Positions 1-56,307 of a stretch of DNA of 64,000 nt are shown piece by piece; position 1 is the first letter of the stretch; the number at the start of each line of letters is the position of its first letter. The notes under the pieces were generated by a model. It was not told the origin of the DNA and made no database searches. It saw nothing but the letters and a program-made list of their open reading frames with translations. This DNA is from Eledone cirrhosa (taxonomy: Eukaryota): assembly GCA_964016885.1 (NCBI GenBank), contig OZ024744.1:9734001-9798000 (forward strand), written 5' to 3'. The translations under genes were made by a program, and so were the position numbers.

Positions 1-1971
1 GCGGGATCAATGGACTGACATCGGACGCAGCCTCTAACCACCCCCCGAACACTGTGTCTGCTAACGTCCGAGTCGATTCTCCTGGCTAGGAACAGGCTCC
101 TATCCACCCCCATGTGGTGCATGTCATGCAACCCCTTCAGGTCTAACTCGGTCAGCCGACACACGGCAGCTATCTCATCCTCTACCTCCCCCGGCGCTTC
201 CATCCAGGCTTTCTTCACTCTAGTTAAGATGTCCGCCCTATTTTTCTCTGAAGGCACGAACACTACGCTCAGGTCGAACTCGGTGGCCAGCTCTCGTAAC
301 GTTCCCAGGCGGCGCTTTATCAGCATCTCCGCCGCGCCTCTCGTTCGCACTCTCTTCTCATTGGTGAGCACTGATCTTACCCATCCGAGTACGGTAGCCG
401 AGTCGGTGCGTATCTCGATGGTGCGCAGCCCCCACCGCAGAGCGAGGTTCACCCCTCTCAACACCGCGTCCAGCTCGGCCACATTGATGTGGCTGCAGTC
501 GTCCTTCTTTCTAAGTCAGGCTGCATCCTCGACCTCAACACCTCCTATCTCCAACGTGACACCCAGCGCTATGCTGCTGGCATCGCACCATACGGTCCCG
601 CTCCGTGATTTGGGAACGTACCAGCGTCCCCGCACTGGGTCGTCGGCCTTCACCCTCCCCACGATCTCCTGCATCATGGCCACCGTTCTCTCTCCCACTC
701 TGTCACTCCAAGTCACCCCTCCCGCTCGTCTCTTGACATAGCTGCATGCCGTCCGGAGCCACCCAGCGATCGGGTAGTGACCCACCAGCTTTCCACACAC
801 CGAGAAAAGCTCCCGCCTATTCATACTTGGGCCCAGTTCCGGAACTTCGTTTCCCCTCTGGAACACCAAAACGCCCGTCTTATCTCGCCGTAGCCTAAGT
901 CCCAGCGCGGCTCCTCCCTCCAATGCTTCTGATGGCTTCGCAGTCAGTCCATACCTCTGCAAATGGCTCGTGACCTCCGCCGTCGACACCACCGACTCGT
1001 CCACTAGGATGTCGTCAATGTAGGAGTTAGTAGCCCTCTTTATCCTGTCGGCCCTCCCCAGAGCGGTCTTGAGGACCGCCGCCATGATCTTCGGTGCGGA
1101 GCTCAGTCCGAAACCGAGCCTGGTCAGGCAATATGTCCGGCCCTAAAAACCTGACCAGCTGATACCGCCAGAGCTTCTCATCTATATGCAACTGCAAGTA
1201 AGCCGACTTTAGATCCACGATCGCGTCATGCGTCTCCACTCACGCAGGGTTTCCCCACAGACATCCGTGACCTCGCCACCCGTGTGGCATGACACGTGCT
1301 CGTTCAGCTCTCGATAGTCCAGCACCGGCCTCACCTTGCTCTTCGTGGGTTGCACCACCGCCATTAACGGAAATACTCCGCACTTCAGCTCCTCCTTCCA
1401 GGGAAGCAGTATGCCCTCTTCGATCCATCTCTCTACTTCTCGCTCCTAGCATTTCCCTTCAATGTGTGTTGATAGTAGCCCACTTTGGTCTTCAGTGTTG
1501 GTGGTTCTCCCTTCCAGTACCACTCAACAACCCATCGCTGCCCATCAAACACGGCCTTGAAGTCTTTGTCCTGTACAGTGTAAGCGGGGTATTCCTCCTC
1601 GTGAGCCTTCTGGTTCTCATGACGTGCACTCACAGCGCATACCGATGCAGCGGCGCCAAACGACACACCGACATTGTTCACCGTGACGCCCCCTAGACGG
1701 CCAATCGCGTCCATGCCCATAACCACGCCGATCCCATCCACCACACTGTCTACCACGATGGCGGAAAGCCTTATCGTCCTTCCCCGTACCGCTATTTCCA
1801 TCTCGCTGCGACCTCGGCATTCAATTTTCCTGCCGTCGACTGCCCTTACGCTGCTCTTCCCTCCCCACCTCTGCGCCACCCCCGCGGTCATCAGTGTCGT
1901 CGTACAGCCCGTATCCACGAGGGCTCGCTGTGGCTTCCCCCTCACGAAGACTTCCACCACGGGCAGCGCCG

Positions 1972-2733
1972 CTACTCGTAAGGGGCAACTACCGGCGCAG
2001 TAGTTCCCCTTGGATCGTTTCCCTGGTCGCAGTTAGTAGCGATGTGGCCTGGTCGCTTACACCGGTAGCAAATTATCTCCGGCTTCGACTCTCTACAGTC
2101 TCTAGCCATATGCGGGCCATGACACCTAAAACAGCGGCCCTTAAATTCTCGCGAACGGCCGCGTGCTGAGGTTGCCTCCCTTTGACCATTTCGCTGCCAG
2201 GTGTCCTGAGCCTCCGTAGTCGCTATCGCCGCGACACTCTTTTTGGCATCTTCCGCTATGATCCGGGCTTGTTCCACCAGTGACCGCATTTCCATCTCCT
2301 TGTACCCCGGAACTTGCTGCAGTTTCACCGCTATGTCGTCCGGAAATCCATTGATGAACGCCAACCGCACCGTGCATTCGCATTCCGCCTGGTAACCGGC
2401 CAACATAGCCAACCGCCTTATTTCCGCTGCGAAAATGTCGACGCGCTCACCATTCCACCTGATTCTCTCCAGCTTAGCAAAAGCCGCCAACGGTCCCTCG
2501 GCGAATGCATCCATCAGACGCCTCTCAATCTTCTGCACATCTCTTTGGCTGTGCTCGTCCAACTCAAGGAAGAGTACCAGCGCGTCGCCCTCGAGGTACA
2601 AGGCAATGAGTCCGGCCACGTCTTCTATCTTCTGCAAGCCCGCGACCAGCCGAACCTTCCGCAGCCAAGCGACAACATCACCTTCCCCGGTGAATGGCCT
2701 GATAGCTTCGTTCATCCGTAGTCTTGTCGCCAT
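1972..2733 (-). CDS. gag: Gag-like protein with zinc knuckles
   Basis: Intact 253-aa ORF with CFRCHGPHMARDC and CYRCKRPGHIATNC (CCHC) motifs, upstream of the protease. Confidence 0.85.
   Translation of the reverse strand: MATRLRMNEAIRPFTGEGDVVAWLRKVRLVAGLQKIEDVAGLIALYLEGDALVLFLELDEHSQRDVQKIERRLMDAFAEGPLAAFAKLERIRWNGERVDIFAAEIRRLAMLAGYQAECECTVRLAFINGFPDDIAVKLQQVPGYKEMEMRSLVEQARIIAEDAKKSVAAIATTEAQDTWQRNGQREATSARGRSREFKGRCFRCHGPHMARDCRESKPEIICYRCKRPGHIATNCDQGNDPRGTTAPVVAPYE
1980..2023 (-). promoter_or_regulatory. Programmed -1 ribosomal frameshift signal (gag-pol)
   Basis: G GGA AAC slippery heptamer (2017-2023) followed 5 nt later by the stem-loop AAGGGGAACTAC..GTAGTTGCCCCTT. The -1 frame reads GKRSKGNY..LPVVEVFVRGK straight into the protease. 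Confidence 0.75.
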
Positions 2734-3047
2734 CTTCTGATTTGTTTTGCGGCAAGTGTTTTATTTTTTTTTTTTTTTTTCAGTCGCCGAAATAGCTTGT
2801 GGTTAGAAAAAGCTATCTCACTTACTGCTTTTCACAGGCGCCGCTAAATTCCACTGCAGGTACTCCTCTTCCACGTGCGTCCGACTGCTTAACACCGGGA
2901 GCTGCCCAAAACGCGTCCTCACCGTATGCTGGTCACCACTAGAGAGAGGCCCTCTCCTGGCCCTTCCGGTCGAGCATCCTTCCGGTTAAAGACCCCTTCC
3001 GGTCGAGCACCCCCCCCCCCCCCCCCCGCACGCCACACTATACCCAC

Positions 3048-6000
3048 AACCATCTCAGTCTTGTCTCCTGTACACCACAACTTATCCCTCTTATGCACAG
3101 TTTCTCTCAACTCGTCACATGTCCATACCATCTCAGTCTTCTCACCCACACACCACAACTAATCCTTCTTATGCACAGTTTCTCTTTCAACTCCTCACAT
3201 GTCCATACCATCTCAGTCTTCTTTCCCACACACTACTACTTATCCCTCTTATACACAGTTTCTCTCTCAACACATCACATGTTCATACCATCTCTGTCTT
3301 CTCTCCCACACACCACAACTTATCCCTCTTATACACAGTTTCCCTGTCAACACATCACATGTCCATACCATCTCTGTCTTCTCTCCGGTACACAACAACT
3401 TATCCCTCTTATACACAGTTTCTCTCTCAACACATCACATGACCATACCATCTCAGTCTTGTCTCCTGTACACCACAACTTATCCCTCTTATGCACAGTT
3501 TTTCTCAACTCGTCACAGGTCCATACCATCTCAGTCTTCTCACCCACACACCACAACTAATCCTTCTTATACACAGTATGTCTCTCAACACATCACATGT
3601 CCATACCATCTCAGTCTTCTCTCCCACACACCACAACTAATTCTTCTTATACACCGTTTCTCTCTCAACTCATCACATGTCCATACCATCTAACTCTTCT
3701 CTCCCACACACTATAACTTATCCTTCTTATACACAGTTTCTCTCTCAACTCATCACATATCCATAGCATCTCAGCCGTCTCTCCCACACATCACAACTTA
3801 TCCCTCTAATACACAGTTTCTCTCTTAACGTGTCCATACCATCTCAGTCTTCTCTCCCACACACTACAACTTATCCCTCTTATACACAGTTTCTCTCTCA
3901 ACTCATCACATATCCATAGCATCTCAGCCGTCTCTCCCACACATCACAACTTATCCCTCTAATACACAATTTCTCTCTTAACGTGTCCATACCATCTCAG
4001 TCTTCTCTCCCACACACTACGACTTATCCCTCTTATACCCAATTTCTCTCTTAACACCTCACATGTCCATACCATCTCAGTCTTCTGTCCCACTCACTAC
4101 AACTTATCCCTCTTATACCCAGTTTCTCTCTCAACTCATCACATGTCCATACCATCTCAGTCTTCTCTCCCACACACCACAACTAATCCTTCTTATACAC
4201 CGTTTCTCTCTCAACTCATCACATGTCCATACCATCTAACTCTTCTCTCCCACACACTATAACTTATCCTTCTTATACACAGTTTCTCTCTCAACTCCTC
4301 ACATGTCTATACCATCTCAGTCTTCTCTCCCACACACTACTACTTATCCCTCTTATACACAGTTTCTCTCTCAACTCATCACATATCCATAGCATCTCAG
4401 CCTTCTCTCCCACACACCACAACTTATCCCTCTAATACACAGTTCCTCTCTCAACTCATCACATATCCCTACCATCTCACTCTTCTCTCCCACACACTAC
4501 AACTTATCCCTCTTATACACAGTTTCTCTCTCAACACATCACATGTCCATACCATCTCAGTCTTCTCTCCCACATACTACAACTTATCCCTCTTATACAC
4601 AGTTTCTCTCTTAACGTGTCCATACCATCTCAGTCTTCACTCCCACACACTACAACTTATCCCTCTTATACCCAGTTTCCCTTTCAACACGTCACATGTC
4701 CATACCATATCTGTCTTCTCTCCCTCACACCACAACTTATCCCTCTAATACACAGTTTCCCTCTCAACACATCACATGTCCATACCATCTCAGGCTTCTC
4801 TCCCACACACCACAACTTATCCCTCTTATAAACAGTTTCTCTCTCAACACATCACATGACCTTACCATCTCACTCTTCTCTCCCACACACCACAACTTAT
4901 CCCTCTTATGCACAGTTTCTCTCTCAACTAATCACATGTCCATACCATCTCAGTCTTCTCTCCCACACACCACAACTAATCCTTCTTATATACCATTTCT
5001 CTCTCAACTCATCACATGTCCATACCATCTAACTCTTCTCTCCCACACACTATAACTTATCCTTCTTATACACAGTTTCTCTCTCAACTCCTCACATGTC
5101 CATACCATCTCAGTCTTCTCTCCCACACACTACTACTTATCCCTCTTATACACAGTTTTTCTCTCAACTCATCACATGTCCTTACCATCACAGTCTTCTC
5201 TCCCACTCACTACAACTTATCCCTCTTATACCCAGTTTCTCTCTCAACACCTCACATGTCCATACCATCTCAGTCTTCTCTCCCACACACTATAACTTAT
5301 CCTTCTTATACACAGTTTCTCTCTCAACTCATGACATGTCCTTACCATCACAGTCTTCTCTCCCACACACCACAACTTATCCCTCTTATACACAGTTTCC
5401 CTCTCAACACATCACATGTCCATACCATCTCTGTCTTCTCTCCGGTACACCACAACTTATCCCTCTTATACCCAGTTTCTCTCTCAACACCTCACATGTC
5501 CATAACATCACAGTCTTCTCTCCCACACACCACAACTTATCCCTCTTATACACAGTTTCCCTCTCAACACATCACATGTTCATACCATCTCTGTCTTCTC
5601 TCTGGTAAACCACAACTTATCCCTCTTATGCACAGTTTCTCTCAACTCGTCACATGTCCATACCATCTCAGTCTTCTCACCCACACACCACAACTAATCC
5701 TTCTTATACACCGTTTCTCTCTCAACTCATCACATGTCCATACCATCTAACTCTTCTCTCCCACACACTACTACTTATCCCTCTTATACACAGTTTTTCT
5801 CTCAACTCATCACATGTCCTTTCCATCACAGTCTTCTCTCCCACACTCTACAACTTATCCCTCTTATACACAGTTTCTCTCTCAACTCATCACATGACCA
5901 TACCATCTCAGTCTTGTCTCCTTAAACCACAATTTATCCCTCTTATACACAGTTTCTTTCTCAAATAATCACATGTCCATACCATCTCTGTCTTCTGTCC

Positions 6001-9000
6001 CACTCACTACAAATTATCCCTCTTATACCCAGTTTCTCTCTCAACACATCACATGTCCATACCAACACAGTCTTCTCTCCCACACAGTACAACTTATCCC
6101 TCTTATGCCCAGTTTCTCTCTCAACACATGTCCATACCATCTCAGTCTTCTCTCCCACACACTACAACTTATCCCTCTTATACCCAATTTCTCTCTTAAC
6201 ACCTCACATGTCCATACCATCTCAGTCTTCTGTCCCACTCACTACAACTTATCCCTCTTATACACAGTATCTCTCTCAACACATCACATGTCCATACCGT
6301 GTCAGTCTTCTCTCCCACACACCACAACTAATCCTTCTTATACACCGTTTCTCTCTCAACTCATCACATGTCTATGCCATCTCAGTCTTCTCTCCCACAC
6401 ACTACTACTTATCCCTCTTATACACAGTTTTTCTCTCAACTCATCACATGTCCTTTCCATCACAGTCTTCTCTCCCACACTCTACAACTTATCCCTCTTA
6501 TACACAGTTTCTCTCTCAACTCATCACATATCCATAGCATCTCAGCCTTCGATCCCACACACCACAACTTATCCCTCTAATACACAGTTTCTCTCTTAAC
6601 GTGTCCATACCATCTCAGTCTTCTCTCCCACACACTACAACTTATCCATCTTATACCCAGTTTCTCTCTTAACACCTCACATGTCCATACCTTCTCAGTC
6701 TTCTCTCCCACACACCACAATTTACCCTCTTATACACAGTTTCCCTCTCAACTCATCACATATACCTACCATCTCACTCTTCTCTCCCACACACTACAAC
6801 TTATCCCTCTTATACACAGTTTCTCTCTCAACACATCACATGTCCATACCATCTCAGTCTTCTCTCCCACATACTACAACTTATCCCTCTTATACACAGT
6901 TTCTCTCTTAACGTGTCCATACCATCTCAGTCTTCTCTCCCACACACTACAACTTATCCCTCTTATACCCAGTTTCCCTCTCAACACGTCACATGTCCAT
7001 ACCATATCTGTCTTCTCTCCCTCACACCACAACTTATCCCTCTAATACACAGTTTCCCTCTCAACACATCACATGTCCATACCATCTCAGGCTTCTCTCC
7101 CACACACCACAACTTATCCCTCTTATACACAGTTTCTCTCTCAACACATCACATGACCTTACCATCTCACTCTTCTCTCCCACACACCACAACTTATCCC
7201 TCTTATGCACAGTTTCTCTCTCAACTAATCACATGTCCATACCATCTCAGTCTTCTCTCCCACACACCACAACTAATCCTTCTTATACACTGTTTCTCTC
7301 TCAACTCATCACATGTCCATACCATCTAACTCTTCTCTCCCACACACTATAACTTATCCTTCTTATACACAGTTTCTCTCTCAACTCATCACATGTCCTT
7401 AACATCACAGTCTTCTCTCCCACACACCACAACTTATCCCTCTTATACACAGTTTCCCTCTCAACACATCACATGTCCATACCATCTCTGTCTTCTCTCC
7501 GGTACACCACAACTTATCCCTCTTATACCCAGTTTCTCTCTTAACACCTCACATGTCCATACCATCTCAGTCTTCTGTCCCACTCACTACAACTTATCCC
7601 TCTTATACCCAGTTTCCCTCTCAACTCATCACATGTCCATACCATCGCAGTTTTCTCTTCCACACACCACAACTTATCCCTCTTATACACAGTTTCCCTC
7701 TCAATACATCACATGTCCATACCATCTCTGTCTTCTCTCCGGTAAACCACAACTTATCCCTCTTATGCACAGTTTCTCTCAACTCGTCACATGTCCATAC
7801 CATCTCAGTCTTCTCACCCACACACCACAACTAATCCTTCTTATACACCGTTTCTCTCTCAACTCATCAAATGTCCATACCATCTCAGTCTTCTCTCCCA
7901 CACACTACTACTTATCCCTCTTATACACAGTTTTTCTCTCAACTCATCACATGTCCTTTCCATCACAGTCTTCTCTCCCACACTCTACAACTTATCCCTC
8001 TTATACACAGTTTCTCTCTCAACTCATCACATATCCATAGAATCTCAGCCTTCTCTCCCACACACCACAACTTATCCCTCTAATACACAGTTTCTCTCTT
8101 AACGTGTCCATACCATCTCAGTCTTCTCTCCCACACACTACAACTTATCCATCTTATACCCAGTTTCTCTCTTAACACCTCACATGTCCATACCTTCTCA
8201 CTCTTCTCTCCCACACACCACAACTTTTCCCTCTTATACACAGTTTCCCTCTCAACTCATCACATATCCCTACCATCTCACTCTTCTCTCCCACATACTA
8301 CAACTTATCCCTCTTATACACAGTTTCTCTCTTAACGTGTCCATACCATCTCAGTCTTCACTCCCACACACTACAACTTATCCCTCTTATACCCAGTTTC
8401 CCTTTCAACACGTCACATGTCCATACCATATCTGTCTTCTCTCCCTCACACCACAACTTATCCCTCTAATACACAGTTTCCCTCTCAACACATCACATGT
8501 CCATACCATCTCAGGCTTCTCTCCCACACACCACAACTTATCCCTCTTATACACAGTTTCTCTCTCAACACATCACATGACCTTACCATCTCACCCTTCT
8601 CTCCCACACACCACAACTTATCCCTCTTATGCACAGTTTCTCTCTCAACTAATCACATGTCCATACCATCTCAGTCTTCTCTCCCACACACCACAACTAA
8701 TCCTTCTTATACACCGTTTCTCTCTCAACTCATCACATGTCCATTCCATCTAACTCTTCTCTCCCACACACTATAACTTATCCTTCTTATACACAGTTTC
8801 TCTCTCAACTCATCACATGTCCTTACCATCACAGGCTTCTCTCCGGTACACCACAACTCATCCCTCTTATACCCAGTTTCTCTCTTAACACCTCACATGT
8901 CCATACCATCTCAGTCTTCTGTCCCACTCACTACAACTTATCCCTCTTATACCCAGTTTCCCTCTCAACTCATCACATGTCCATACCATCGCAGTTTTCT

Positions 9001-12000
9001 CTTCCACACACCACAACTTATCCCTCTTATACACAGTTTCCCTCTCAATACATCACATGTCCATACCATCTCTGTCTTCTCTCCGGTAAACCACAACTTA
9101 TCCCTCTTATGCACAGTTTCTCTCAACTCGTCACATGTCCATACCATCTCAGTCTTCTCACCCACACACCACAACTAATCCTTCTTATATACCGTTTCTC
9201 TCTCAACTCATCACATGTCCATATCATCTAACTCTTCTCTCCCACACACTACTACTTATCCCTCTTATACACAGTTTTTCTCTCAACTCATCACATGTCC
9301 TTTCCATCACAGTCTTCTCTCCCACACTCTACAACTTATCCCTCTTATACACAGTTTCTCTCTCAACTCATCACATGACCATACCATCTCAGTCTTGTCT
9401 CCTTAAACCACAATTTATCCCTCTAATACACAGTTTCTTTCTCAAATAATCACATGTCCATACCATCTCTGTCTTCTGTCCCACTCACTACAACTTATCC
9501 CTCTTATACCCAGTTTCTCTCTCAACACATCACATGTCCATACCAACACAGTCTTCTCTCCCACACAGTACAACTTATCCCTCTTATGACCAGTTTCTCT
9601 CTCAACACATGTCCATACCATCTCAGTCTTCTCTCCTGCACAGTTTCCCACTCAGCACATCACCTGTCCATACCATCTAACTCTTCTCTCCCACGCACCA
9701 TAACTTATCGCTCTTATACACAGTTTCACTCAACTCATCACATGTCCATACCATCTCAGTCTTCTCTCCCACACACCACAACTTATCCCTCTTATACACA
9801 GTTTCTCTCTCAACTCATCACATGTCCATACCATCGCAGTCTTCTCTCTTGCACACCACAAATTATCCCTCTTATACCCAGTGTCTCTCTCAACACATCA
9901 CATGTCCATACCATCTCAGTCTTCTCTTCCACACACTACAACTTATCCCTCTTATACCCAGATTTTCTCTTAACTCATCACATGTTCATACCATCTCAGT
10001 CTTCTTGCCTGCACACCACAACTTATCCCACTTATACACAGTTTCTCTCTTAACTCATCACATGTCCATACCATCTCAGTTTTCTCTCCCACACACCACA
10101 ACTTATCCCTCTCATACACAGTTTCTCTCTCAGCACATCACATGTCCATACCATCTCAGTCTCCTCTCCCACACACCACAACTTATCACTCTTATACACA
10201 GTTTCCCTTCCAACTCGTTACATGTCCATACCATCTCAGTCTTCTCTCCCATATCGTCCTTATACACCGTTTCTCTCTCAACTCATCACATGTCCATACC
10301 ATCTCACTTTTCTCTCCCACACACTACAACTTATCCCTCTTATACACAGTTTCTCTCTCAACTCATCACATGTCCGTACCATCTCAGTCTTCTCTCCCAC
10401 ACACCGCAACTAATCCTTCTTATATACTGTTTCTCTCTCAACTCATCACATGTCCATAACATCTCAGTCTTCTCTCCCACACACCACAACTTATCCCTCT
10501 TATACACAGTTTCTCTCTCAGCACATCACATGTCCATACCATCTCAGTCTCCTCTCCCACACACCACAACTTATCACTCTTATACACAGTTTCCCTTCCA
10601 ACTCGTTACATGTCCATACCATCTCTGTCTTCGCTCCCATATCGCCCTTATACACCGTTTCTTTCTCAACTCATCACATGTCCATAACATCTCAGTCTTC
10701 TCTCCCACATACCACAACTTATCCCTCTTATACACAGTTTCTCTCTCAGCACATCACATGTCCATACCATCTCAGTCTCCTCTCCCACACACCACAACTT
10801 ATCACTCTTATACACAGTTTCCCTTCCAACTCGTTACATGTCCATACCATCTCAGTCTTCTCTCCCACACACTACTACTTATCCCTCTTATTCACAGGTT
10901 TTCTCTCAACTCATCACATGTTCTTATTATCTCAGTCTTCTCTCCCACACACTACAACTTACCCCTCTTATACACAGTTTCCCTCCGAACACATCACATG
11001 TCCAAACCATCGCAGTCTTCTCTCCCACACACCACAACTTATCCCTCTTATACACAGTTTCTCTCTCAACCCATCACATGTCCATACTATCGCAGTCTTC
11101 TCTCCTGCACACCACAACTTATCCCTCTTATACCCAGTTCCTCTCTCAACATATGACATGTCCATACCATCTCAGCCTTCTCTCTCACACACTACAAATT
11201 ATCCCTCTTCTACAAAGTTTCTCTGTCAACTCATCACATGGCCATACCATCTCGGTCTTCTCTCCCACACACTACAACTTATCCCTCTTATACAGTGTTT
11301 CTCTCTTAACACATTACATGTCGATACCATCTCAGTCATCTCTCCTGTACACCACAACTTATCCCCCTTATACACAGTTTTTCTCTCAACTCATCACATG
11401 TCCATACCATCTCAGTCTTCTCGCCTGCACACCACAACTTATCCCTCTTATACACAGTTTTTCTCTCAACAAATCACATGTCCATACCATCTCAGTCTTC
11501 TCTCCCACACACTACAACTTATCCCTCTTATACACAGTCTCTCTCTCAACTCATCACATGTCCATAGCATCTCAGTTTTCTCTCCTCTACACCACAATTT
11601 ATTCCACTTGTACACAGTCTCTCTCAACTCATCACATGTCCATACCATCGCAGTTTTCTCGCCTGCACACCACAACTTATCCCTCTTATACACAGTTTCT
11701 CTCTCAACTCATCACATGTCCATACCATCTCAGTCTTCTCTTCCACACACTACAACTAATCCCTCTTATACCCAGTTTTTCTCTTACATCATCACATGTC
11801 CAAACCATCTCAGTTTTCTCTCCCACACACCACAACTTATCCCTCTTATACACAGTTTCTCTCTCAGCACATCACATGTCCATACCATCTCAGTCTCCTC
11901 TCCCACACACCACAACTTATCACTCTTATACACTGTTTCCCTTCCAACTCGTTACATGTCCATACCATCTCAGTCTTCTCTCCCACACACTATAAACTTA

Positions 12001-14457
12001 TCCCTCTTATACACAGTTTCTCTCTCAACATATCACATGTCCATACCATCTCAGTCTTCTCTCCCACACACTACTACTTATCCCTCTTATACACAGGTTT
12101 TCTCTCAACTCATCACATGTCCTTACCATCTCAGTCTTCTCTCCCACACACTACAACTTACCCCTCTTATACACAGTTTCCCTCCCAACACATCACATGT
12201 CCAAACCATCGCAGTCTTCACTCCCACACACCACAACTTATCCCTCTTATACACAGTTTCTCTCTCAACTCATCACATGTCCATACCATCGCAGTCTTCT
12301 CTCCTGCACACCACAACTTATCCCTCTTATACCCACTTCCTCTCTCAACATATGACATGTCCATACTATCTCAGCCTTCTCTCCCACACACTACAACTTA
12401 TCCCTCTTATACACAGTTTCTCTCTCAACTCATCACATGGCCATACCATCTCGGTCTTCTCTCCCACACACTACAACTTATCCCTCTTATACAGTGTTTC
12501 TCTCTTAACACATTACATGTCGATACCATCTCAGTCTTCTCGCCTGCACACCACAACTTATCCCTCTTATACACAGTTTTTCTCTGAACACATCACATGT
12601 CGATACCATCTCAGTCTTCTCTCCCACACACTACAACTTATCCCTCTTATACACAGTCTCTCTCTCAACTCATCACATGTCCATAGCATCTCAGTTTTCT
12701 CTCCTCTATACCACAATTTATCCCACTTGTACACAGTCTCTCTCAACTCATCACATGTCCATACCATCGCAGTTTTCTCGCTTGCACACCACAACTTATC
12801 CCTCTTATACACAGTTTCTCTCTCAACTCATCACATGTCCATACCATCTCAGTCTTCTCTTCCACACACTACAACTTATCCCTCTTATACACAGTTTCTC
12901 TCTCAACTCATCACATGTCCATACCATCTCAGTCTTCTCTCCCACACACTACAACTTATCCCTCTCATACTTAGTTTCTTTCCCAACACATCACATGTCC
13001 AAACCATCTCAGTCTTCTCTCCCACACTCCACAACTTATCCCTCTTATACACAGTTTCTCTCTCAGCACATCACATGTCCATACCATCTCAGTCTCCTCT
13101 CCCACACACCACAACTTATCACTCTTATACACAGTTTCCCTTCCAACTCGTTACATGTCCATACCATCTCAGTCTTCCCTCCCATATCGTCCTTATACAC
13201 CGTTTCTCTCTGAACACATCACATGTCGATACCATCTCAGTCTTCTCTCCCACACACTACAACTTATCCCTCTTATACACAGTCTCTCTCTCAACTCATC
13301 ACATGTCCATAGCATCTCAGTTTTCTCTCCTCTATACCACAATTTATCCCACTTGTACACAGTCTCTCTCAACTCATCACATGTCCATACCATCGCAGTT
13401 TTCTCGCTTGCACACCACAACTTATCCCTCTTATACACAGTTTCTCTCTCAACTCATCACATGTCCATACCATCTCAGTCTTCTCTTCCACACACTACAA
13501 CTTATCCCTCTTATACACAGTTTCTCTCTCAACTCATCACATGTCCATACCATCTCAGTCTTCTCTCCCACACACTACAACTTATCCCTCTCATACTTAG
13601 TTTCTTTCCCAACACATCACATGTCCAAACCATCTCAGTCTTCTCTCCCACACTCCACAACTTATCCCTCTTATACACAGTTTCTCTCTCAGCACATCAC
13701 ATGTCCATACCATCTCAGTCTCCTCTCCCACACACCACAACTTATCACTCTTATACACAGTTTCCCTTCCAACTCGTTACATGTCCATACCATCTCAGTC
13801 TTCCCTCCCATATCGTCCTTATACACCGTTTCTCTCTCAACTCATCACATGTCCATACCATCTCACTCTTCTCTCCCACACACTACAACTTATCCCTCTT
13901 ATACACAGTTTCTCTCTCAACTCATCACATGTCCGTCCCATCTGTCTTCTCTCCCACACACCGCAACTAATCCTTCTTTTACACCGTTTCTCTCTCAACT
14001 CATCACATGTCCATAACATCTCAGTCTTCTCTCCCACACACTACAACTTATCCCTCTTATACACAGTTTCTCTCTCAGCACATCACATGTCCATACCATC
14101 TCAGTTTCCTCTCCCACACACCACAACTTATCACTCTTATACACAGTTTCCCTTCCAACTCGTTACATGTCCATACCATCTCAGTCTTCTCTCCCATATC
14201 GTCCTTATACACCGTTTCTCTCTCAACTCATCACATGTCCATACCATCTCACTCTTCTCTCCCACACACCCCAACTTATTCCTCATATACCCAGTTTCTC
14301 TCTCAACACATCACATGTCCATACCATATCAGTCTTCTATCCCACACACTACAACTTATCCCTCTTATACACAGTTTCTTTCTTAACTCATCACATGTCC
14401 ATACCATCTCAGTCTTCTCTCCCACACACTACAACTTATCCCTCTTATACACAGTTT
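3048..14457. repeat. 80-bp satellite (about 140 units) derived from RTE LINE ORF2
   Basis: Unit ACATGTCCATACCATCTCAGTCTTCTCTCCCACACACCACAACTTATCCCTCTTATACACAGTTTCTCTCTCAACTCATC. The minus strand translates as DELREKLCIRGISCGVWERRLRWYGHV. Confidence 0.97.
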
Positions 14458-14913
14458 TTTAGGAGATTAGTATCGGTGTACATATAACATAAAAAAGACA
14501 GTAAATACCGGTGTCTGTGTTATAATAATGTTTTTACTTCATGGAAGTCAAAGGTATTAAATATTAAGGATTTGTTACCCGATGGTCATAACTCGAGGCT
14601 GAAGTTGGTAGAGAAAAGAAGAGATCTTTTCTAGCTGGTATTGACATCTTAGGCTCTCAGGCTGCAAGTTGCATTGTTCTTGGTAGCGAAGGATTATCAA
14701 GAAGGAATCATCGCAAGCTAAGGTCGCAGGTGTTACCACTTCAGAAATCAGGAGGCAAGAGGGAGATATCATGGTAACCTGTTACTTTTATAGGAGGTGA
14801 CCGGAAGTGACCAACAGGGAGTCTGTCAATCGCAAAGGGAAGCAACTCCAGCTACTTCCTGTCTAGAGAGCGGTGATGAGATTGTCATGACAAGGGAGGG
14901 AACTCTTGCTACA
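14458..14913 (-). repeat. 3' LTR
   Basis: Direct repeat of 19431-19886. Starts TGTAGC on the minus strand and is preceded by purine-rich GGCGGGAGATAA. Confidence 0.93.
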
Positions 14914-15529
14914 TTATCTCCCGCCAGATTTTTAAAACATAAAAATCGAAAGAAGCATGCATGGAGTAAGATGGCGAGCATGTAAGAGGCATGAAAATTA
15001 TGGTACAAATTAATAAAAGTAAGAGAAGAGGTCAAAAGTTCAAATATCTAAAATACAGTTCACATGTGTGCAATCACATGACAGCAGTAAAGAATGTGTT
15101 CCAGAGAATGAATGCACGTGGTTTCTGGTCTGTGGTATAACATGAAATTTCCAACTTCCGAAGGGAATTTCTCACAGGCAGAGTGCTGCAGAAATAAATT
15201 GTCTGGCTTGTTCTGCTGGTTTTAGTTGTTGATGAAGCTGTGTTGTTGTTGTTGATGGTGTGAATGCGTTGACCTGGAAGGGTCAAGAGGCCAGCGACCA
15301 GAGAAATAAGCATTCTTAATAAATGCGCGGTTTTCAACGGCAAATTTACGTGGTAAATTTATAAACCGGCAAATAGAAGAATATAGCTTAAAATGTTCGT
15401 TGTAAAGGAAACGAAAAACATATATATACATCCAGTGAAATGGTAATGAGAGGTACATTGTAATACAATAAATGAATAAATAACAAGAACAGCAAAAAAA
15501 AATATATATATAAGGCTCCAATGGCCAGT

Positions 15530-16738
15530 TCACATAAAAATAGTTTGGCAGAACTTTTTGGGCCAGTGGACTCTCCGACCGGAACGGGTCGTAGTCTTGT
15601 ATGTAGGTGAAGGTGGGGCAAAAGGAGCAGGTGTATGCACAAGAGAGAAAGATTGGGGTATTTGTGGCTCGAGTGTATGAGCGTCATTGTGTGCCCTTTT
15701 CAGTCTATCCACCGAAATTGTCTCTCTGGACCCCTTAACGTCTACAGTGAAATGTTTGTCAGTGCGTGCTAACACACAGTAGGGTCCAGAGTATGGTTGT
15801 GTGAGGGGTGGTCTCACAGCATGGTTCCTTACAAACACATGGATCCACGAGGCAATGTCCCTCGGGACCGCAGGTTTTACAGTTTGCTTCCTCGTATCCA
15901 TCGGCGGCAGGTCCTGAAAATAAGAACGCAGACGGGATACGTAGGAAAGCGGATCTTGGAAAGCAAGATCAACAGGGGCAAGCATTTGCCCAGGCAACGC
16001 TAGAGGAGCACCGTAAATTAATTCGGCCGGGGAGAACCCAAGGTCCTCCTTTATTGATGACCGAATTCCTAATAACACAATAGGAAGGTACTCGCTCCAA
16101 CGTTGAGAGTCTGGATAGGCGCGAAGAGCGGCCTTTAATTGGCGGTGGAATCGTTCCACCATTCCATTTGAAGCAGGATGATAGGCTGTGGTCCGAATCC
16201 GTTGAGCTCCAATTATTTTTGTGAGCTCAGAGAAGAGATGGGATTCGAATTGTCTACCACGGTCTGTGGCGAGTGTAGTTGGTACCCCAAAGCGGGTAAT
16301 CCACCCTGATACCAGGGCACGTGCTACAGTCTCAGCAGTCATGTCTTGTAAAGGGATGGCTTCAGGCCATCGCGAAAAACGATCGACACACGTCAATATG
16401 TAAGAATATCCACTGCTGAATGGCCAAGGTCCAACGATGTCAATGTGGATGTGTTGAAACCGAGCATCTGGAGTACTGAAAGTACCAAGTGGAGTCCGGA
16501 TGTGTCTATGGATCTTCGATTTCTGGCAAGCGATACAGGAACGGCACCAGGCAGCAATGTCGCGCCTCATATTTGGCCAGAAGAATCTGGCTGTTATGAG
16601 TTTAACTGTGGCAGCAGCTCCTGGATGAGAAATGTTGTGCAAAGCCAGGAACACAATTCGACGGTGAGTCTCAGGAACAAGTGGTCGTGGAGCATCAGTA
16701 GATACATCACATAGAATCTGCCTGTCGGTGGTGGACAA
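15530..16738 (-). CDS. Gypsy integrase (separated from RT/RH by frameshifts)
   Basis: H..HPG..C..C zinc-binding motif, [22 protein letters not shown] (DDE core), GPY motif. Confidence 0.93.
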
Positions 16739-16887
16739 GGGCAGATATTTGAAAATTCAAGTCGCAAATTCAGTAGAAAGAGTCTCCAACGATTGGAGTG
16801 CAGGTTGGTCTGCAGCTAAACGACCTAAGTCGATCTCCTGGGATGACGAGATGGAGCTAATTAGAAAACGTGACAATGCGTCTGCAA

Positions 16888-18639
16888 CTATGTTGTGTGA
16901 GCCGGCAATGTGCTGGATATCGTTTGTAAATTGTGCCTTTTCTCTCTGGGCGAATATCTGTCGGCTTTGGCCCTCAAAGCGAAGGTCAACGGTTTGTGGT
17001 CGGTAAAAACCGTAAAATTTCTCCCCTCAAGAATATGAGAGAAATGTTTCACCGACAGATATATGGCTAATAATTCCCGCCCAAACGTGCTATAACGCGT
17101 TTCTGCTGGTTTCAACTTCCTCGAGAAAAATGCCAAAGGTTGTTGGTTTTCAGCGCAAGACTGCTGTAAAACTGCTCCCACAGCGGTATCAGATGCATCA
17201 ACACAAAGCGAAAGCTTGGCCTCTGGTACCGGGTGGGCTAGCAAAGAACTAGCGAGTGCTGTCTTGGCAGACTGGAAGTCCTGAAGCTGTCCTTGTGTCA
17301 AGGAAATGTCTTCATTCTTCTTACGACGATTTTTTAAAATGTCAGTAAGGGAAGATAGCCAATTAGCACAATGAGGAATGAAACGCCTATAGAAATTGAT
17401 TAGGCCTAAGAAGTGACGCAACTGGTGAAGTTTAGTAGGCGGAGGTAACTCCTGTATGGCTTGAACTCGCTGAGGGAGCGGCCTAATACCTTCGGCGTCG
17501 ATGAGGTGGCCTAAAAAATGTAGGGAAGTGGAACCGAAAACACACTTTGCAGGATTTACGCGAACGCGGTAATCCTGAAGTCGCCGAAATAAGAGAAGCA
17601 TGTGGCGCATATGCTCTTCCGGAGAGGAACTAGCGACGAGAATATCGTCTATGTAAGCATAGACGAAGTCCAGACCACGCGTGACCTCGTCTATGAACCG
17701 CTGAAAAGTGCTAGCGGCGTTCCTGAGTCCGAAAGGCATGGTCAAAAATTCGAAGGATCCGAAAGGGGTTGTAATCGCCGTTTTCGGAATATCCTCCTTC
17801 CTGACCGGAATTTGGTGGTAGGCTCGCACTAAATCTAACTTAGAAAAAAGCTTACACCCCTGCAGTGAAGATGCAAAATCGTGGAGATGGGGAATCGGAT
17901 ACCTATCCGGGACGGTCATGGCATTTAACCTCCTATAATCCCCAGTGGATCTCCAGTTGCCGGAAGTCTTGGTCACCATATGTAATGGTGAAGCCCAAGG
18001 ACTCGTAGATGGGCGAATAATGCCCAGCTGCAGCATATGGTCGAACTCGGACCGTGCTGCCTTTAATTTTTCCGCCGGTAAGCGGCGTGGACGCGAAAAC
18101 ACTGGGGCACCGGTGGTGGAAACGAAATGTTCGGTCGAGTGTGTTGGGTCAGTGACTCGAAAATTTCCATCCGTGAGCTCCGGGAAAGAACCCAGCAACG
18201 CATGGTAGGCGTCCCCAGCGGCAGCGACAAAGAATACGGGGCTGACTATTGGAGCATTGGCTTCCTGGCCATGAATTGAACAGCCGGTGATGTTATCCAC
18301 CAGGCGTTGGCCACGGACGTCCACAGTTAAAGAGAAGTTGTGGAGGAAATCCGCTCCTAAGATGGGATATGGCAAATCGGCAACCGTAAAAATCCACTTA
18401 AAATCCCTTCGAAGATTTAGGAATTTAAGAGGAAGCGAGATTTGCCCGTACGTCTTTATAGACGAGTGGTTCACTGCCTGCAGCGTAACAGATGACTCTA
18501 TGGGGGTATCTTTCAGGCAATGGACCGGCCAAATACTACAGGAGGCTCCTGTATCCACGAGGAAACCTCTTCCGGACATTAGGTCCTTAATGAAGAAATG
18601 GCGGTTTGGTGGCTTTATGTTGAGGTCAACTGTCCCCAT
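16888..18639 (-). CDS. pol: Gypsy pol: aspartic protease, reverse transcriptase, RNase H
   Basis: [51 protein letters not shown] slippery GGGAAAC at 18657-18663 puts this ORF in the -1 frame of the gag remnant. Confidence 0.95.
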
Positions 18640-18650
18640 CAGAGGACCTC

Positions 18651-18950
18651 TTAGGCGTTTCCCGCCTTATGAAAGGAGCAAGGTTGCACGCAGTGATTCG
18701 CGTTCTCAGCAAATCGCTCGTGGTACCAGCATAAAGATGAAGCTGGTGACTTAGAACGCCGTCTAAAACTTTGCGATCTCCCGCTACTGCGGGGGCGCGA
18801 ACAGCCACCACACAAGGCCTTCATCTTGTGGAGCTCTATGGTGAGCTCCTGAATGGACCTTTGCATCGCTATAATGGTCGAGCTGTCTGTTGGCGCTGCC
18901 GCGTAGATCGCATGGCCGCGTGTGGCCCGAGCTGGGTGGTGAACACAAGC
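18651..18950 (-). pseudogene. C-terminal remnant of gag
   Basis: SLCWYHERF..C..PC motif ending GNA*. No open gag N-terminal region upstream. Confidence 0.65.
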
Positions 18951-19409
18951 TATTGGTATACCGTAGGCAATCTACCGTTTGGAAAAATGTCTTTAACATA
19001 ACAGAAAAGGAAAACAAAATTTTTCCGTCAAACCACTGGACCGGAAAAATAATGCATCCGGGACAATATGCAAACAAGCGATTAAGTGAATGCTGTTATA
19101 CTAAGGTAAGGGCAAGGAACCTAAAAAAAAAAATCCAACATCGCGGACTATTTCGCGCCCAAAACACTATTGATGGAGAAGAGAGACTCCATCTTGTCAT
19201 CCTCAAAATTTTTTAGCCAGTGAAGAGAAGGGCAGAAAAGGAGAGAAAAAAAAAGGCAAAAACATTTATACAATTGCTGTTTGTCTGTGTGTCAATAATT
19301 GTAGGTGTTCGTTTTGTATTAAATTGTTATATTTTTCTCTTTTTCTTCTGTCTCTCTTTTTTTTTTATATTATATACACCGTATACCATTTCCCATTCTT
19401 TTTTTTTTT

Positions 19410-19429
19410 AAATCACGTCAGGGTCACCA
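19410..19429 (-). promoter_or_regulatory. Primer-binding site for tRNA-Trp
   Basis: + strand AAATCACGTCAGGGTCACCA matches the eukaryotic tRNA-Trp 3' end (AAATCACGTCGGGGTCACCA, recalled) with one mismatch, 1 nt from the LTR. Confidence 0.85.
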
Positions 19430-19430
19430 C

Positions 19431-19886
19431 TTTAGGAGATTAGTATCGGTGTACATATAACATAAAAAAGACAGTAAATACCGGTGTGTGTGTTATAATA
19501 ATGTTTTTACTTCATGGAAGTCAAAGGTATTAAATATTAAGGATTTGTTACCCGATGGTCATAACTCGAGGCTGAAGTTGGTAGAGAAAAGAAGAGATCT
19601 TTTCTAGCTGGTATTAACATCTTAGGCTCTCAGGCTGCAAGTTGCATTGTTCTTGGTAGCGAAGGATTATCAAGAAGGAATCATCACAAGCTAAGGTCGC
19701 AGGTGTTACCACTTCAGAAATCAGGAGGCAAGAGGGAGATATCATGGTAACCTGTTACTTTTATAGGAGGTGACCGGAAGTGACCAACAGGGAGTCTGTC
19801 AATCCCAAAGGGAAGCAACTCCAGCTACTTCCTGTCTAGAGAGCGGTGATGAGATTGTCATGACAAGGGAGGCAACTCTTGCTGCG
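19431..19886 (-). repeat. 5' LTR
   Basis: Direct repeat of 14458-14913, adjacent to the PBS. Confidence 0.93.
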
Positions 19887-19909
19887 GTTTCTTTCTCAAC
19901 TCATCACAT

Positions 19910-20338
19910 TGTAATGACCTACATTCCGCAGGCTCACATACATTCTTCGTGCGTTATTTCGCTCAGCCCAGCCAATGACCGCCAGCGGAGGAGAATGTAT
20001 CTCTACGCGACCTGAGGGAAAAATTCCCGCGTATATTTGAGAAATCTTGCTCTTGCATCCTGACAGTGAAAAGGTAAACAACTAACTTTCTTTCGTCGTG
20101 AAATCACTAGCCAACATATAACACAACTTAACCACAACCTTGCTAGACTTCAGCCAGTGGACCGTGCCTTCTGAAATTCTTAATTCGTTTGTTTTATTAC
20201 TCTTGGCATGCCTGCTCTAGTTAGCTCTACACAGCTCAACCTTGTTAATAAATAATGTAAAACAAACCAAGTCGTTGTCGATGTTCTTATCACATCTTTC
20301 TACCAAACTAATTACGCGTGGCGCTACTAGCTATAACA
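19910..20338. mobile_element. Unclassified insert of about 430 bp in the satellite, possible solo LTR
   Basis: Begins TGTAAT, candidate end ATAACA, internal AATAAA. No clean TSD. Confidence 0.4.
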
Positions 20339-20354
20339 TATCTTAACTGCTAAA

Positions 20355-21017
20355 AGTTTCTCTCTCAACTCATCACATGTCCATACCATCCCAGTCTTCT
20401 CTCCCACACACTACAACTTATCCCTCTCATACTTAGTTTCTCCCTCAACTCATTACATGTCCATACCTTCTCAGTCTTCCCTCCTGTACACCACAACTTA
20501 TCCCTCTTATACACAGTCTCTCTCAACTCATCACATGTCCATACCATCTCAGTCTTCTCTCCCACACACTACAACTTATCCCTCTTATACAGAGTCTCTC
20601 TCAACTCGTCACATGTCGATACCAATGTTGTCTTCTCTCCCACACACTAAAGTTTATCCCTCTTATACCCAGTTTCCCTCTCAACTCATCACATGTCTGT
20701 ACCAACGCAGTCTTCCCTCCCACACACTACAGCTTATCCTTTTTATACCCAGTTTCTCTCTCAACTCATCACATGTCCATACCATCCCAATCTTCTCTCC
20801 CGCACACTACAACTTATCCCTCTCATACTTAGTTTCTACCTCAACTTATCACATGTCCATACCAACACAATTTTCTCTCCTGTACACCACAAGTTATCCC
20901 TCTTATACACAGTTTCTCTCTCAACACATCACATGTCCATACCATCTCAGTCTTCTCTCCCACACACTACAATTTATCCCTCTTATACACAGTTTCTCTC
21001 TCAACACATCACATGTC
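20355..21017. repeat. 80-bp RTE-derived satellite, continuation
   Basis: Same unit, somewhat more diverged. Confidence 0.95.
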
Positions 21018-22261
21018 ATTCCTCTGTTCAAAAAGGGTGACCGCACATCACCTGTGAACTATCGTCCAGTCAGTCTTATTAGTTGCATCGTCAAACTGAT
21101 GGAATCCTGTGTCAGAGAAACACTTTGGAACTTCTGGAGCTCTCACAGTCTTATCCGGCCCTCGTATTTGGATTTATCCCCAACTCCAGCTGCTGTGATC
21201 AACTTATAGAGTTTCTTGAGGACATCACCCGGATCACTGTTGGCGGCTCATGGGTGGATGTTGTTTACCTTTACTTTGCGAAGGCCTTCAATTCTGTGCC
21301 ACACAAAAGGCTTATGACAAAACTCTCTGCAATGGGTGTGAAGGATGATCTTTTTAACTGGTTGAAGTCCTTCATTCTCAGTCGAAGAGAGGTAGTCACG
21401 GTTCTGGGACAGCATTCCTCACCATATGAGATGTCATCTGGTGTACCACAGGGATCTGTTCTTGGCCCCCTTTTGTTTGTGGCATATATTAATGACATAG
21501 ATGCCAACTTAAGGAATGCCACAGTACTAAAGTACGCAGATGACATCAAGCTGTACCTTGAGATAAAAAGGACAGATCCTGAACACTATAGATCTTGCTT
21601 GCAGTCTGACCTGGACACAATGCAACAGTGGATCTCAGACTGGCAACTCAAGCTAGCTGTGGACAAGTGCCCCACCATGCATTTTGGGAGTAAAAACCCA
21701 GCGTCCACATACTCCCTCCACAGCACTAATATCAAGAAGTCTTCTTGTGAACGTGACCTGGGCATTACGGTCAGCAGCGATTTGCGTTGGACGAAGCACA
21801 TCTCTAAAATTGTCAAGAGGGCCGAGGGTGTCTTAGCATCACTCAGCAAGACCTTTGTCAGCCGCTCTCCAGCTATCTATTTAAGGCTGTACATGGCTAT
21901 GGTGTGGCCACACTTAGAATTTGCATCACCAGTCTGTAACCCCTATCTTGCTCAGAACATTGACCGCCTGGAAACTGTTCAGTGACGTGCAACCAAGTGA
22001 ATACCCTCCATCAGGCATCTACCATACTCTGAACGCCTTGCTTCCCTGGGCATGGATTCATTGAAGTTCCGACGCCTGGCAACTGACTTGGTAAACACCC
22101 ACAAAATTGTTAACCATGTTGCCAACAACAACCCTGAGTACCTTTTTGATTTCCATGTGTCTAACACACGTGGGCATGCCCACAAAGTCAGAAAACAGCA
22201 CAGTTCCCATGACTTTCGGAAACATTTTTTCACGCTCAGAGTTGCTGAAGCATGGAACAAA
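21015..22261 (+). mobile_element. CR1-clade LINE ORF2 (RT) fragment, both ends missing
   Basis: VIPLFKKG..NYRPVSL, FAKAFNSVPH, GVPQGSVLGPLLF, YADD, TRGH..RVAEAWN, with a frameshift and stops. Confidence 0.92.
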
Positions 22262-22784
22262 CCATAACGTATCCCTCTTATACCCAGTTCCCTTTCAACT
22301 CATCACATGTCCAAACCATTTCAGTCTTCTCTCCCACACACCACAACTTATCCCTCTTATACCCAGTTTCTCTCTCAATACATCACATGTCCATACCACC
22401 TCAGTCTTCTCTCCCACACACTACAACTAATCCTTCTTATACACAGTTTCTCTCTCAACACATCACATGTCCATACCATCTCAGTCTTCTCTACCACACA
22501 CTACAACTTATCCCTCTTATACCTAGTGTCTCTCTCAACACATCACATGTCCATACCATCTCAGTCTTCTCTCCTGTACACCATAACCTATCCCTCTTAT
22601 ACCCAGTCTCCCTCTCAACTCATCATATGTCCATACCATCTCAGTCTTCTCTCCCACACACTACAACTTATCCCTCTTATACACAGTTTCTCTCTCAACT
22701 CATCACATGTGCATACCATCTCAGTCTTCTCTCCTGCACACTTCAATTTATCCCTCTTATACCCAGTTTCTCTCTCGACTCATC
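22262..22784. repeat. 80-bp RTE-derived satellite, last units fused to the parent RTE
   Basis: About 6 units. The final unit continues without a break into RTE coding sequence at CATC 22781-22784. Confidence 0.95.
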
Positions 22785-23362
22785 TATGCTTGTTCGTTCA
22801 CGCACATTGACATTGCACATCCAACGGAGCATGCTTGCTTCATTTGTCTCCAGCTGTCGCATATCCTCTGCAGTTGCTGCCCATGTCCCACTGCCATGCA
22901 GTATCGCGCATCTAATACAGGCATCATATAACCGGCTTTTCTTTAGTAGCGAGAAACCCTTCTTCGTCAGCAGAGGAATCAGCTCTCTAAACTTCTTCCA
23001 ACCGGTCCTTATTCTAGATACTATGGCCTCGGAACATTCCCCTCCCATGCTAATCCGATCTCCTAGGTACCGGAAGCTGTCCACCACTTCTATAGCACCC
23101 GCCTGCATTTGAAAAATGTGTCTATCAATGTGACTTCTACTGTCTAATTTCCCTGTACATCTTCTGCATACATATTTCTCCCTGTCTGTTAGTTTGCCTG
23201 CTATCCCACTACATCTCTTGTGTACCCAGGATCTGCATTGTGTACATTCTTTAGAATTTATGCCAGTTCCTTTTCTGCATATGGAACATGGCTATTTCTC
23301 TGACGGAATCAGAGTTTTGTCCTCTTTTCTACTCATCAACACTTTTGTTTAGCTAGGTTCAC
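22781..23362 (-). mobile_element. RTE-clade LINE ORF2 fragment with PHD-like zinc finger (parent of the 80-mer)
   Basis: PCSICRK..CTQCRSWVHKRC..CRRC, then VDSFRYLGD..GWKKFREL..LHGSGTW..MLRWMC. Confidence 0.9.
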
Positions 23363-23394
23363 TACATATATATATATATTTCATTGTATATCAT

Positions 23395-23454
<60 letters not shown>

Positions 23455-23455
<1 letters not shown>

Positions 23456-24553: not shown

Positions 24554-24579
24554 ATATATATACAAAGATATACAATGAA

Positions 24580-56276: not shown

Positions 56277-56306
<30 letters not shown>

Positions 56307-56307
<1 letters not shown>

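What the first reader, a model, noticed from the sequence alone, without database searches (positions are those of the whole stretch)
3048..23362. 80-bp satellite is a tandemly amplified slice of RTE reverse-transcriptase coding sequence, with the parent junction preserved
The minus-strand unit encodes DELREKL.IRGISC.V.ERRLRWYGHV. At 22781-22784 the array continues into ordinary RTE ORF2 (..MLRWMCNVNVRERTSIDESREKLGIRGI). The unit closes at GATG, which occurs in the parent at both D-E-L and V-M-R. About 20 kb of this window, including nested insertions, grew from one RTE fragment. The array is strongly strand-asymmetric (G/purine-rich minus strand) and could template RNA against the RTE family (inference).
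Basis: seen in the sequence. Interest (0 to 1): 0.7.

Follow-up and report, generated by a model that had tools for sequence, protein, structure and literature searches.

The report
Satellite spreading through its parent retrotransposons
An 80-letter piece of a jumping gene is repeated head to tail inside more than 200 separate copies of that gene, almost all on small chromosomes, and it likely spreads from copy to copy by DNA repair, which would show how one chance duplication can become a genome-wide satellite.

Summary
The 80-bp unit is a slice of the C-terminal coding part of an RTE-type LINE. The array has 571 units over 56 kb and runs 33 kb past the window. It is not a one-off: at least 222 separate insertions carry 2 or more units at the same register, against 6,112 single-unit copies. 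None of the 222 lies on the four largest chromosomes (54% of the genome); at least 60 lie on one 29-Mb chromosome. Expanded copies are not one clade (p-AU 0.00016), so no duplicated master. The closing GATG is weak: 660-7,900 equal or better sites exist nearby. Units of a foreign subfamily sit between host flanks in 7 of 16 young arrays against 0 of 19 single copies. Best reading (0.55): a rare junction spreads into other RTE copies by ectopic conversion, then expands locally. Rival (0.3): a recurring in-place hotspot with later exchange. No RNA role was testable. The scan noted similar LINE-slice satellites before (e1-9515023, e1-9529664), not this slice.

The parts
22785..23363 (-). 5'-truncated RTE-type LINE fragment (subfamily A) upstream of the array: end of RT region, PHD finger, start of C-terminal region
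   Evidence: PHD PF00628 E 2.2e-05
22705..22784 (-). First unit, the element's own slice, still in frame with the ORF
22257..22784 (-). Array segment 1, 7 units
21018..22256 (+). Nested fragment of another LINE (CR1-like by recalled tail motif), not in register with the array
   Evidence: RVT_1 E 2.6e-27; junctions
20355..21017 (-). Array segment 2, 8-9 units
14458..20354 (-). Nested Gypsy-type LTR retrotransposon; 462-bp direct repeats at 14458-14919 and 19431-19892 (453 of 462 identical); the same 5 bases on both sides; 19893-20354 not assigned
   Evidence: RT, RNase H, integrase
3049..14457 (-). Array segment 3, 144-145 units
1..3048 (-). Nested LTR element (gag zinc knuckle, RT-like), TG...CA ends, 5-bp target duplication; its second LTR lies about 1.1 kb before the window, and beyond it the array goes on for 410 units
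59297..59960 (+). Second RTE copy of the same family (subfamily B) with two units (59567-59720, period 78), both parent flanks and the (ATG)n tail
56306..56864 (+). Copy of a more distant RTE family, single slice
57942..58502 (-). Copy of a more distant RTE family, single slice
63015..63380 (-). Copy of a more distant RTE family, single slice

Best explanation
This is the far-expanded member of a family of at least 222 arrays that sit inside separate insertions of one RTE-type LINE, and the unit-to-unit junction likely arose rarely and then likely spread into other RTE copies by homology-directed repair. Steps. (1) Shown: single-slice RTE copies inserted genome-wide, each with its own 5' truncation and tail. 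(2) Inferred: in one or a few copies a chance duplication at a short GATG match, in the most G-rich and C-poor part of the element, made the junction. (3) Partly shown: in repeat-rich domains (small chromosomes, some chromosome ends and Mb-scale blocks) a broken RTE copy uses an array-bearing copy as repair template, copies across the junction and returns to its own 3' flank, gaining units without crossover. Foreign units between host flanks are shown; that this is how most arrays start is inferred. (4) Inferred from established minisatellite behaviour: unequal exchange and slippage expand and homogenise each array, here to 571 units, which then collects other mobile elements. No function is implied.
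For: 222 entry junctions followed by a second unit against 6,112 single-slice copies; none of the 222 on C1-C4 (1,617 of 2,996 Mb), 60 of the 100 listed on C25. One A subtype: 32 of 80 single copies and no expanded copy on C1-C4, 3 single and 8 expanded on C25 (p 1e-6). Flank tree of 108 elements: 30 label changes against 32 shuffled, one clade rejected. 55 arrays with both ends have different truncation points and flanks, 13 with a candidate target duplication. The register has a 2-4 bp match, with 661 to 7,942 equal or better sites in 760 nt of five single copies, yet all 15 expanded copies among 30 in 744 kb of contiguous DNA use it. 15 of 44 arrays with B flanks mix unit subfamilies; 4 of 44 hold an A-type unit against 0 of 54 single copies; youngest hosts 7 of 16 against 0 of 19, p 0.0017. 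L111: two units of two subtypes, youngest-type flanks, target duplication intact. L287: B flanks, units B, then A, then A front with B back. L114 and L117, 1 Mb apart with different flanks, share three unit types. A-type arrays share four alleles that are minor in single copies.
Against: Import into an existing array is shown; import as the first step is not. 10 of 14 two-unit B arrays show no foreign marker, though a donor of the host's own subtype is invisible. First and last unit share a rare allele in 15 of 60 complete arrays against 2-3% of single-copy pairs; 9 of the 15 are at positions 22 or 66, which are subfamily-like variants, but the window's own two-unit copy, L096, L100, L106 and L119 look like in-place duplications. 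A first unit is closer to its own array than to others (2.7 against 4.1 differences). Units sharing two rare alleles between arrays are not above a shuffled null (1 pair against a mean of 1.6). Most units match their host's main subfamily. Recombination rate and chromatin of the domains were not measured. The first 30 arrays were picked by likeness to this window's units, and my markers were chosen on part of the same data.
Confidence: 0.55

Rival explanations
1. Recurring in-place hotspot. The G-rich, C-poor slice duplicates again and again at the same register by slippage or template switching wherever the chromosome domain is unstable. Foreign units come in later, because arrays are recombinogenic.
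For: The slice is the most C-poor window of the parent. A second register (174 bp, 21 junctions at about 15 loci, all on C22 and C25-C28) and arrays of a distant RTE family return to the same 5' region. Some arrays share private alleles in all units. The domains are 37-42% tandem DNA against about 1% on C1 and C2.
Against: Only a 3-bp match in most B hosts, among about 2,450 equal sites; the 174-bp register has the better match (11 of 13, read) but is far rarer. No hairpin in either strand. 4 of 14 two-unit B arrays already hold a unit with markers foreign to the other unit (L091, L107, L111, L281).
Confidence: 0.3
2. Same spread, but carried by extrachromosomal circles or rolling-circle products of the 80-bp unit that integrate into RTE copies by homology.
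For: Gives whole foreign units at a fixed register between intact host flanks. Proposed for Rsp-like satellites (PMC7403614, passages).
Against: Does not by itself explain Mb-scale clustering, such as 13 of 14 C20 arrays within 3.6 Mb. Not separable from conversion by sequence alone; no circle data.
Confidence: 0.1
3. RNA-level origin: a duplicated master element was retrotransposed, or the reverse transcriptase jumps back at GATG (which resembles its (ATG)n tail) during insertion.
For: A fixed 5' boundary with several 3' boundaries would fit a template jump, and a jump between two RNAs would give mixed units.
Against: Retrotransposition is genome-wide, yet no expanded copy lies in 1.6 Gb. Expanded copies are not a clade. 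Foreign units lie between two host-type flanks.
Confidence: 0.05

Closest known systems
SINE-derived satellites (sSat) of squamate reptiles, Vassetzky et al. 2023, PMC10702118 (read parts 1-4 of 5 of the text; supplements not read)
   Same: An internal slice of a dispersed retroelement is tandem at many loci with one dominant register (67 nt in snakes), a few to hundreds of units, parent sequence at the ends, subtelomeric bias while the parent is evenly spread, units alike between loci.
   Different: Here the parent is a coding LINE, both parent flanks are usually kept, and subfamily markers show units moving between loci. In the parts read, that paper invokes unequal recombination and concerted evolution and does not test import.
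Rsp-like satellite spreading into 1.688 clusters on the Drosophila X, Sproul et al. 2020, PMC7403614 (passages)
   Same: A rare microhomology junction is shared by distant loci and is proposed to seed new clusters where homologous repeats already lie, by interlocus conversion or eccDNA.
   Different: The landing sites there are another satellite; here they are single copies of the parent retrotransposon, and the junction is the satellite's own head-to-tail joint.
LINE ORF2-derived satellites (PROsat, chicken HinfI/CR1, seal Pvc 20), as listed in review PMC9659126 (passages and table)
   Same: Satellite monomer derived from LINE coding sequence.
   Different: Listed there as sequence similarity to a LINE; here the series from 1 to 571 units stands in place in hundreds of insertions.
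TE-derived minisatellites in the human genome, Ahmed and Liang 2012, PMC3389668 (passages)
   Same: Tandem repeats born inside TE copies; slippage and flanking direct repeats explain only 6% of them.
   Different: No genomic hotspots were seen there and registers vary; here one register and strong regional restriction.
Maize CRM1TR/CRM4TR, Sharma et al. 2013, PMC3648361 (abstract)
   Same: Retrotransposon-derived tandem repeats, gene conversion as source of variation, nested LTR insertions.
   Different: Two or three loci, with little or no movement between loci 1.4 Mb apart; here movement between loci is seen.

Membership tests
RTE-clade LINE (parent) | Single ORF of about 1,050-1,100 aa with APE endonuclease and RT | tested here: met
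   Near-intact neighbour 5 kb past the window: Exo_endo_phos and RVT_1 in one frame, one stop; best homologues are 1,040-1,100 aa with the same domains plus PHD
RTE-clade LINE (parent) | Short-repeat 3' tail, 5' truncation, target duplication | tested here: met
   (ATG)n tails and varied truncation in 55 elements; candidate duplications in 13 of 55
RTE-clade LINE (parent) | RT phylogeny within the RTE clade | not tested
   No named RTE reference was returned; the clade name rests on architecture and recalled motifs
Retroelement-derived satellite (sSat type) | Unit is an internal slice of a dispersed retroelement, with parent sequence at an array end | tested here: met
Retroelement-derived satellite (sSat type) | Many loci, one dominant register, few to hundreds of units | tested here: met
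   222 loci, 7,886 exact junctions, 2 to 571 units
Retroelement-derived satellite (sSat type) | Subtelomeric location | tested here: inconclusive
   The C7 cluster is terminal, but C25 is covered almost end to end and the C20 cluster is at 9-13 of 37 Mb
Retroelement-derived satellite (sSat type) | Parent is a SINE | tested here: not met
   Parent is a coding LINE; it works like an sSat but is not one
VNTR carried by a mobile master (SVA or Ogre type) | Repeat present in the master, expanded copies form a lineage and follow the insertion pattern | tested here: not met
   6,112 single against 222 expanded; no clade; different chromosome distribution
Satellite spread by interlocus conversion (Rsp-like model) | Identical junction shared by distant loci that already held homologous sequence | tested here: met
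Satellite spread by interlocus conversion (Rsp-like model) | Donor-type sequence beside the junction, discordant with the host | tested here: met
Satellite spread by interlocus conversion (Rsp-like model) | 3D contact between loci, or satellite on eccDNA | not testable with these tools
   no Hi-C or eccDNA data
Small-RNA source against its parent TE | Antisense transcripts and piRNA or siRNA from the array | not testable with these tools
   no RNA run was available to lay

The most novel reading that the evidence does not exclude
The head-to-tail junction acts like a protein-free homing element: it colonises dispersed copies of its own parent LINE by gene conversion, turns about half of the copies in permissive chromosome domains into arrays, and is one case of a general engine (a 61-bp slice of another LINE shows 706 such entries) that has made the small chromosomes about 40% tandem DNA.
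Probability: 0.4. Interest if true: 0.75.

Novelty: new variant of a known kind. Interest (0 to 1): 0.56.

Why it matters
Satellites made from retroelement pieces are known, but how the same register turns up at hundreds of loci is open: the reptile study sees the pattern without testing the cause, and the human survey explains 6% of such repeats. Here every stage from one to 571 units stands in one assembly, inside insertions whose subfamily markers tell host from donor. That makes birth in place against spread by conversion countable from sequence alone. It also shows a sharp split of one animal genome into domains where dispersed repeats stay single and domains where they turn into minisatellites.

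Tried and rejected
Duplicated master: rejected (apart from the two query loci, none of the 56 close relatives with a detectable unit has more than one, and 2 had no unit). Segmental duplication of whole loci: among 12 C20 loci the shared sequence was confined to the RTE and other repeats. Hairpin at the unit: none, z 0.5 to 1.1. The 62-nt short unit shared by three arrays as proof of transfer: rejected, the same 18-bp loss occurs in single copies between two internal 6-bp repeats. Rare-allele haplotype sharing between arrays: not above null. The count '26 of 78 mixed' was discarded because A-type units were miscoded and one A host (L104) was counted as young; redid it with flank typing. Higher-order repeat in the long array: only weak periodicity (best lags 18, 26-27, 42). 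Expression: no RNA holder listed. Other organisms: short contigs in runs X4-X6 touch the unit-to-unit joint, none with 31 letters on both sides; small shares, no conclusion. Pattern for an alternative short junction gave 2 hits, not followed. Literature: nine searches listed no paper on this satellite or on marker-shown import of units into dispersed LINE copies; subscription journals are mostly not covered, and the supplements of PMC10702118 may bear on this. A scripted identity table of the long array's majority unit against the window's RTE copies was not made; the figures given are hand counts.
Full report
Observation. TRF finds 80-bp arrays at 3049-14457, 20355-21017 and 22266-22784, all on one strand. 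On the minus strand a LINE reading frame runs into the first unit at 22784, and the unit opens and closes at GATG. The window holds 160 units. Fetching 60 kb upstream showed 410 more, so the locus has 571 units over 56 kb, each about 7% from the array majority. Three mobile elements are nested in it; the two LTR elements have 5-bp target duplications in register with the unit. The parent's 3' flank is missing at the far end.

Parent. A near-intact copy 5 kb past the window has endonuclease and RT in one frame, the window fragment has a PHD finger after the RT, the best homologues are single ORFs of 1,040-1,100 aa with these domains, and copies end in (ATG)n. This fits the RTE clade; no tree with named references was made. 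The slice lies in the C-terminal region, about 75 codons before the stop, and a second unit shifts the frame into a stop. The organism is likely an octopus by earlier notes of this scan and by recall; I did not test it. Active RTE LINEs are described in octopus (PMC9115989, passages).

The window itself holds the key lead. The RTE copy at 59.3 kb has two units at the same register and keeps both flanks. A search of the own genome gave 30 loci, 29 of them new, with RTE 5' flank, 3 to more than 22 units, and mostly an RTE 3' flank. Queries made of flank alone returned single-unit copies: of 58 loci other than the two queries, 56 had one unit and 2 none. Exact patterns count 7,886 unit-to-unit joints, 222 entries followed by a second unit and 6,112 single-slice copies. 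All three are lower bounds.

Distribution. The listing is in contig order and starts at C5: none on C1-C4, which hold 1,617 Mb; 40 on C5-C24, 13 of the 14 on C20 within 9.4-13 Mb; 60 on C25; 122 unlisted further on. For one A subtype listed whole, 32 of 80 single copies are on C1-C4 and 3 on C25, where 8 expanded copies of that subtype lie. In 744 kb of contiguous DNA from C25-C28, 15 of 30 copies of the family are expanded; the stretches were chosen around 5 known arrays, so 10 of 25 without them. These stretches are 37-42% tandem DNA, against 1.0-1.4% in 160 kb of C1 and C2.

Not a master element. On a tree of flanks (108 elements, those with both flanks well aligned) expanded and single copies are interleaved in both the older A and the younger B subfamily: 30 changes against 32 shuffled, one clade rejected at p-AU 0.00016. 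The tree is poorly resolved, but each array has its own truncation point, tail and flanks (55 examined, 13 with a candidate target duplication).

The microhomology does not explain the reuse. In five single copies the register used has a 2-4 bp match, and 661 to 7,942 sites in the same 760 nt match as well or better without gaps. With one gap the best hosts reach about 8 of 9 (read), but 34 of the 48 B-type hosts listed start AATG and share only ATG (hand count). All 15 expanded copies in the contiguous survey use this register; one also uses a 174-bp register, which has 21 joints at about 15 loci, all on C22 and C25-C28. The slice is the most C-poor 80-nt window of 2.1 kb of parent (4-5 C against a median of 12), so a sequence bias is likely too; neither strand forms a hairpin.

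Units move between loci. Two linked sites split B units into B1 and B2, and intermediates are rare in single copies (3 of 50). After adding 32 arrays and 8 single copies, 15 of 44 arrays with B flanks mix unit types, 4 of 44 hold an A-type unit against 0 of 54 single copies, and among the youngest hosts 7 of 16 arrays against 0 of 19 single copies carry a foreign unit (p 0.0017). The effect was weaker in the added set (1 of 5 young hosts that passed flank typing; two more mixed arrays, L266 and L273, lacked enough upstream flank). L111 has youngest-type flanks, an intact target duplication and one B1 plus one B2 unit. In L091, L270, L287 and L288 the last unit is A-type in front and host-type behind, a pattern seen in 0 of 103 single copies. 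That is what copying across a donor's junction and returning to the host would leave, though a circulating mosaic unit would look alike. L114 and L117 share three unit types.

Against pure import. 10 of 14 two-unit B arrays show no foreign marker. First and last units share a rare allele in 15 of 60 complete arrays against 2-3% of single pairs, and several arrays, the window's own two-unit copy among them, look like duplications in place or full later homogenisation. First units are nearer their own array than others. Sharing of rare two-site haplotypes between arrays is at the null level. So both local ancestry and exchange are real; which one starts most arrays is inferred. I give 0.55 to spread of a rare junction by conversion, 0.3 to a recurring hotspot with later exchange, 0.1 to circles as carrier and 0.05 to an RNA-level origin.

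Reads. Raw DNA reads of another sample under the same species label show joints that go back 80 bases (149 reads, 2 starts), so the tandem form is not special to this assembly. The junction at 22784 is ordinary parent sequence and needs no separate support.

Comparison. The pattern matches SINE-derived satellites of reptiles (PMC10702118, parts 1-4 of 5), and the proposed spread matches the Rsp-like model in Drosophila (PMC7403614, passages). LINE-coding satellites are listed in PMC9659126 (passages). PMC3389668 (passages), PMC3648361 (abstract) and PMC11610590 (passages) give contrasts: no regional hotspot, no movement between loci, and no conversion signature. Nine searches listed no description of this satellite or of marker-shown import into dispersed LINE copies. 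Earlier notes of this scan read related LINE-slice arrays as local duplication; a look-up by sequence found none for this slice.

Verdict. A real feature and a new variant of a known kind. The single array is ordinary; the value lies in the genome-wide series, the sharp regional restriction and the markers that make the mechanism testable. Interest 0.56.

Noticed in passing
window 49264-51891: 61-bp satellite (43 copies) made of the 3' coding end of a CR1-like LINE, closing at CATG. Its entry-plus-junction pattern has 706 hits, clustered mostly toward the ends of C1-C3 and in blocks on C4. Whether the parent master is single-slice was not checked.
   Followed up: partly
window 29611-35685, 41952-42327, 47533-48085: 72-bp AT-rich satellite, recurring at many loci on C25-C28; parent not identified. 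One block is flanked by an inverted pair of L1/Tx1-like LINE copies (35.9-41.8 kb and 42.4-47.3 kb).
   Followed up: no
G000 C25:8.0-8.4 Mb, C26:9.0-9.1 Mb (L171-L230): About 45 minisatellite arrays per 100 kb, 37-40% of the DNA, with recurring 48/49-, 61-, 65-, 72-, 107- and 108-bp families, against 3-6 per 100 kb on C1 and C2.
   Followed up: partly
G000 C25:8213100-8216700 (L192) and C25:8301000-8302000 (L201): A distant RTE family forms 151-, 141- and 59-bp arrays from the homologous region; the 151-bp array lies next to what reads like an MCM4 exon (recalled, not searched).
   Followed up: partly
window 28025-29572 (+): 515-codon stretch with an adenylate cyclase catalytic domain, E 1e-60: the satellite-rich block lies in a gene-bearing region, probably an intron.
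   Followed up: partly
window 23455-24600 (-): A different RTE-like LINE with an open RT frame lies directly upstream of the parent fragment; an 81-bp array from its homologous C-terminal motif occurs on C27.
   Followed up: no
L127:4794-7868 (-), 5 kb past the window end: Near-intact single-slice copy of the parent family with one stop codon; the family has a PHD finger inserted after the RT core.
   Followed up: partly
G000 C28 (136 Mb): The window's contig is large but numbered after the smallest chromosomes, as sex chromosomes often are (recalled convention, not tested); the longest array seen here lies on it.
   Followed up: no
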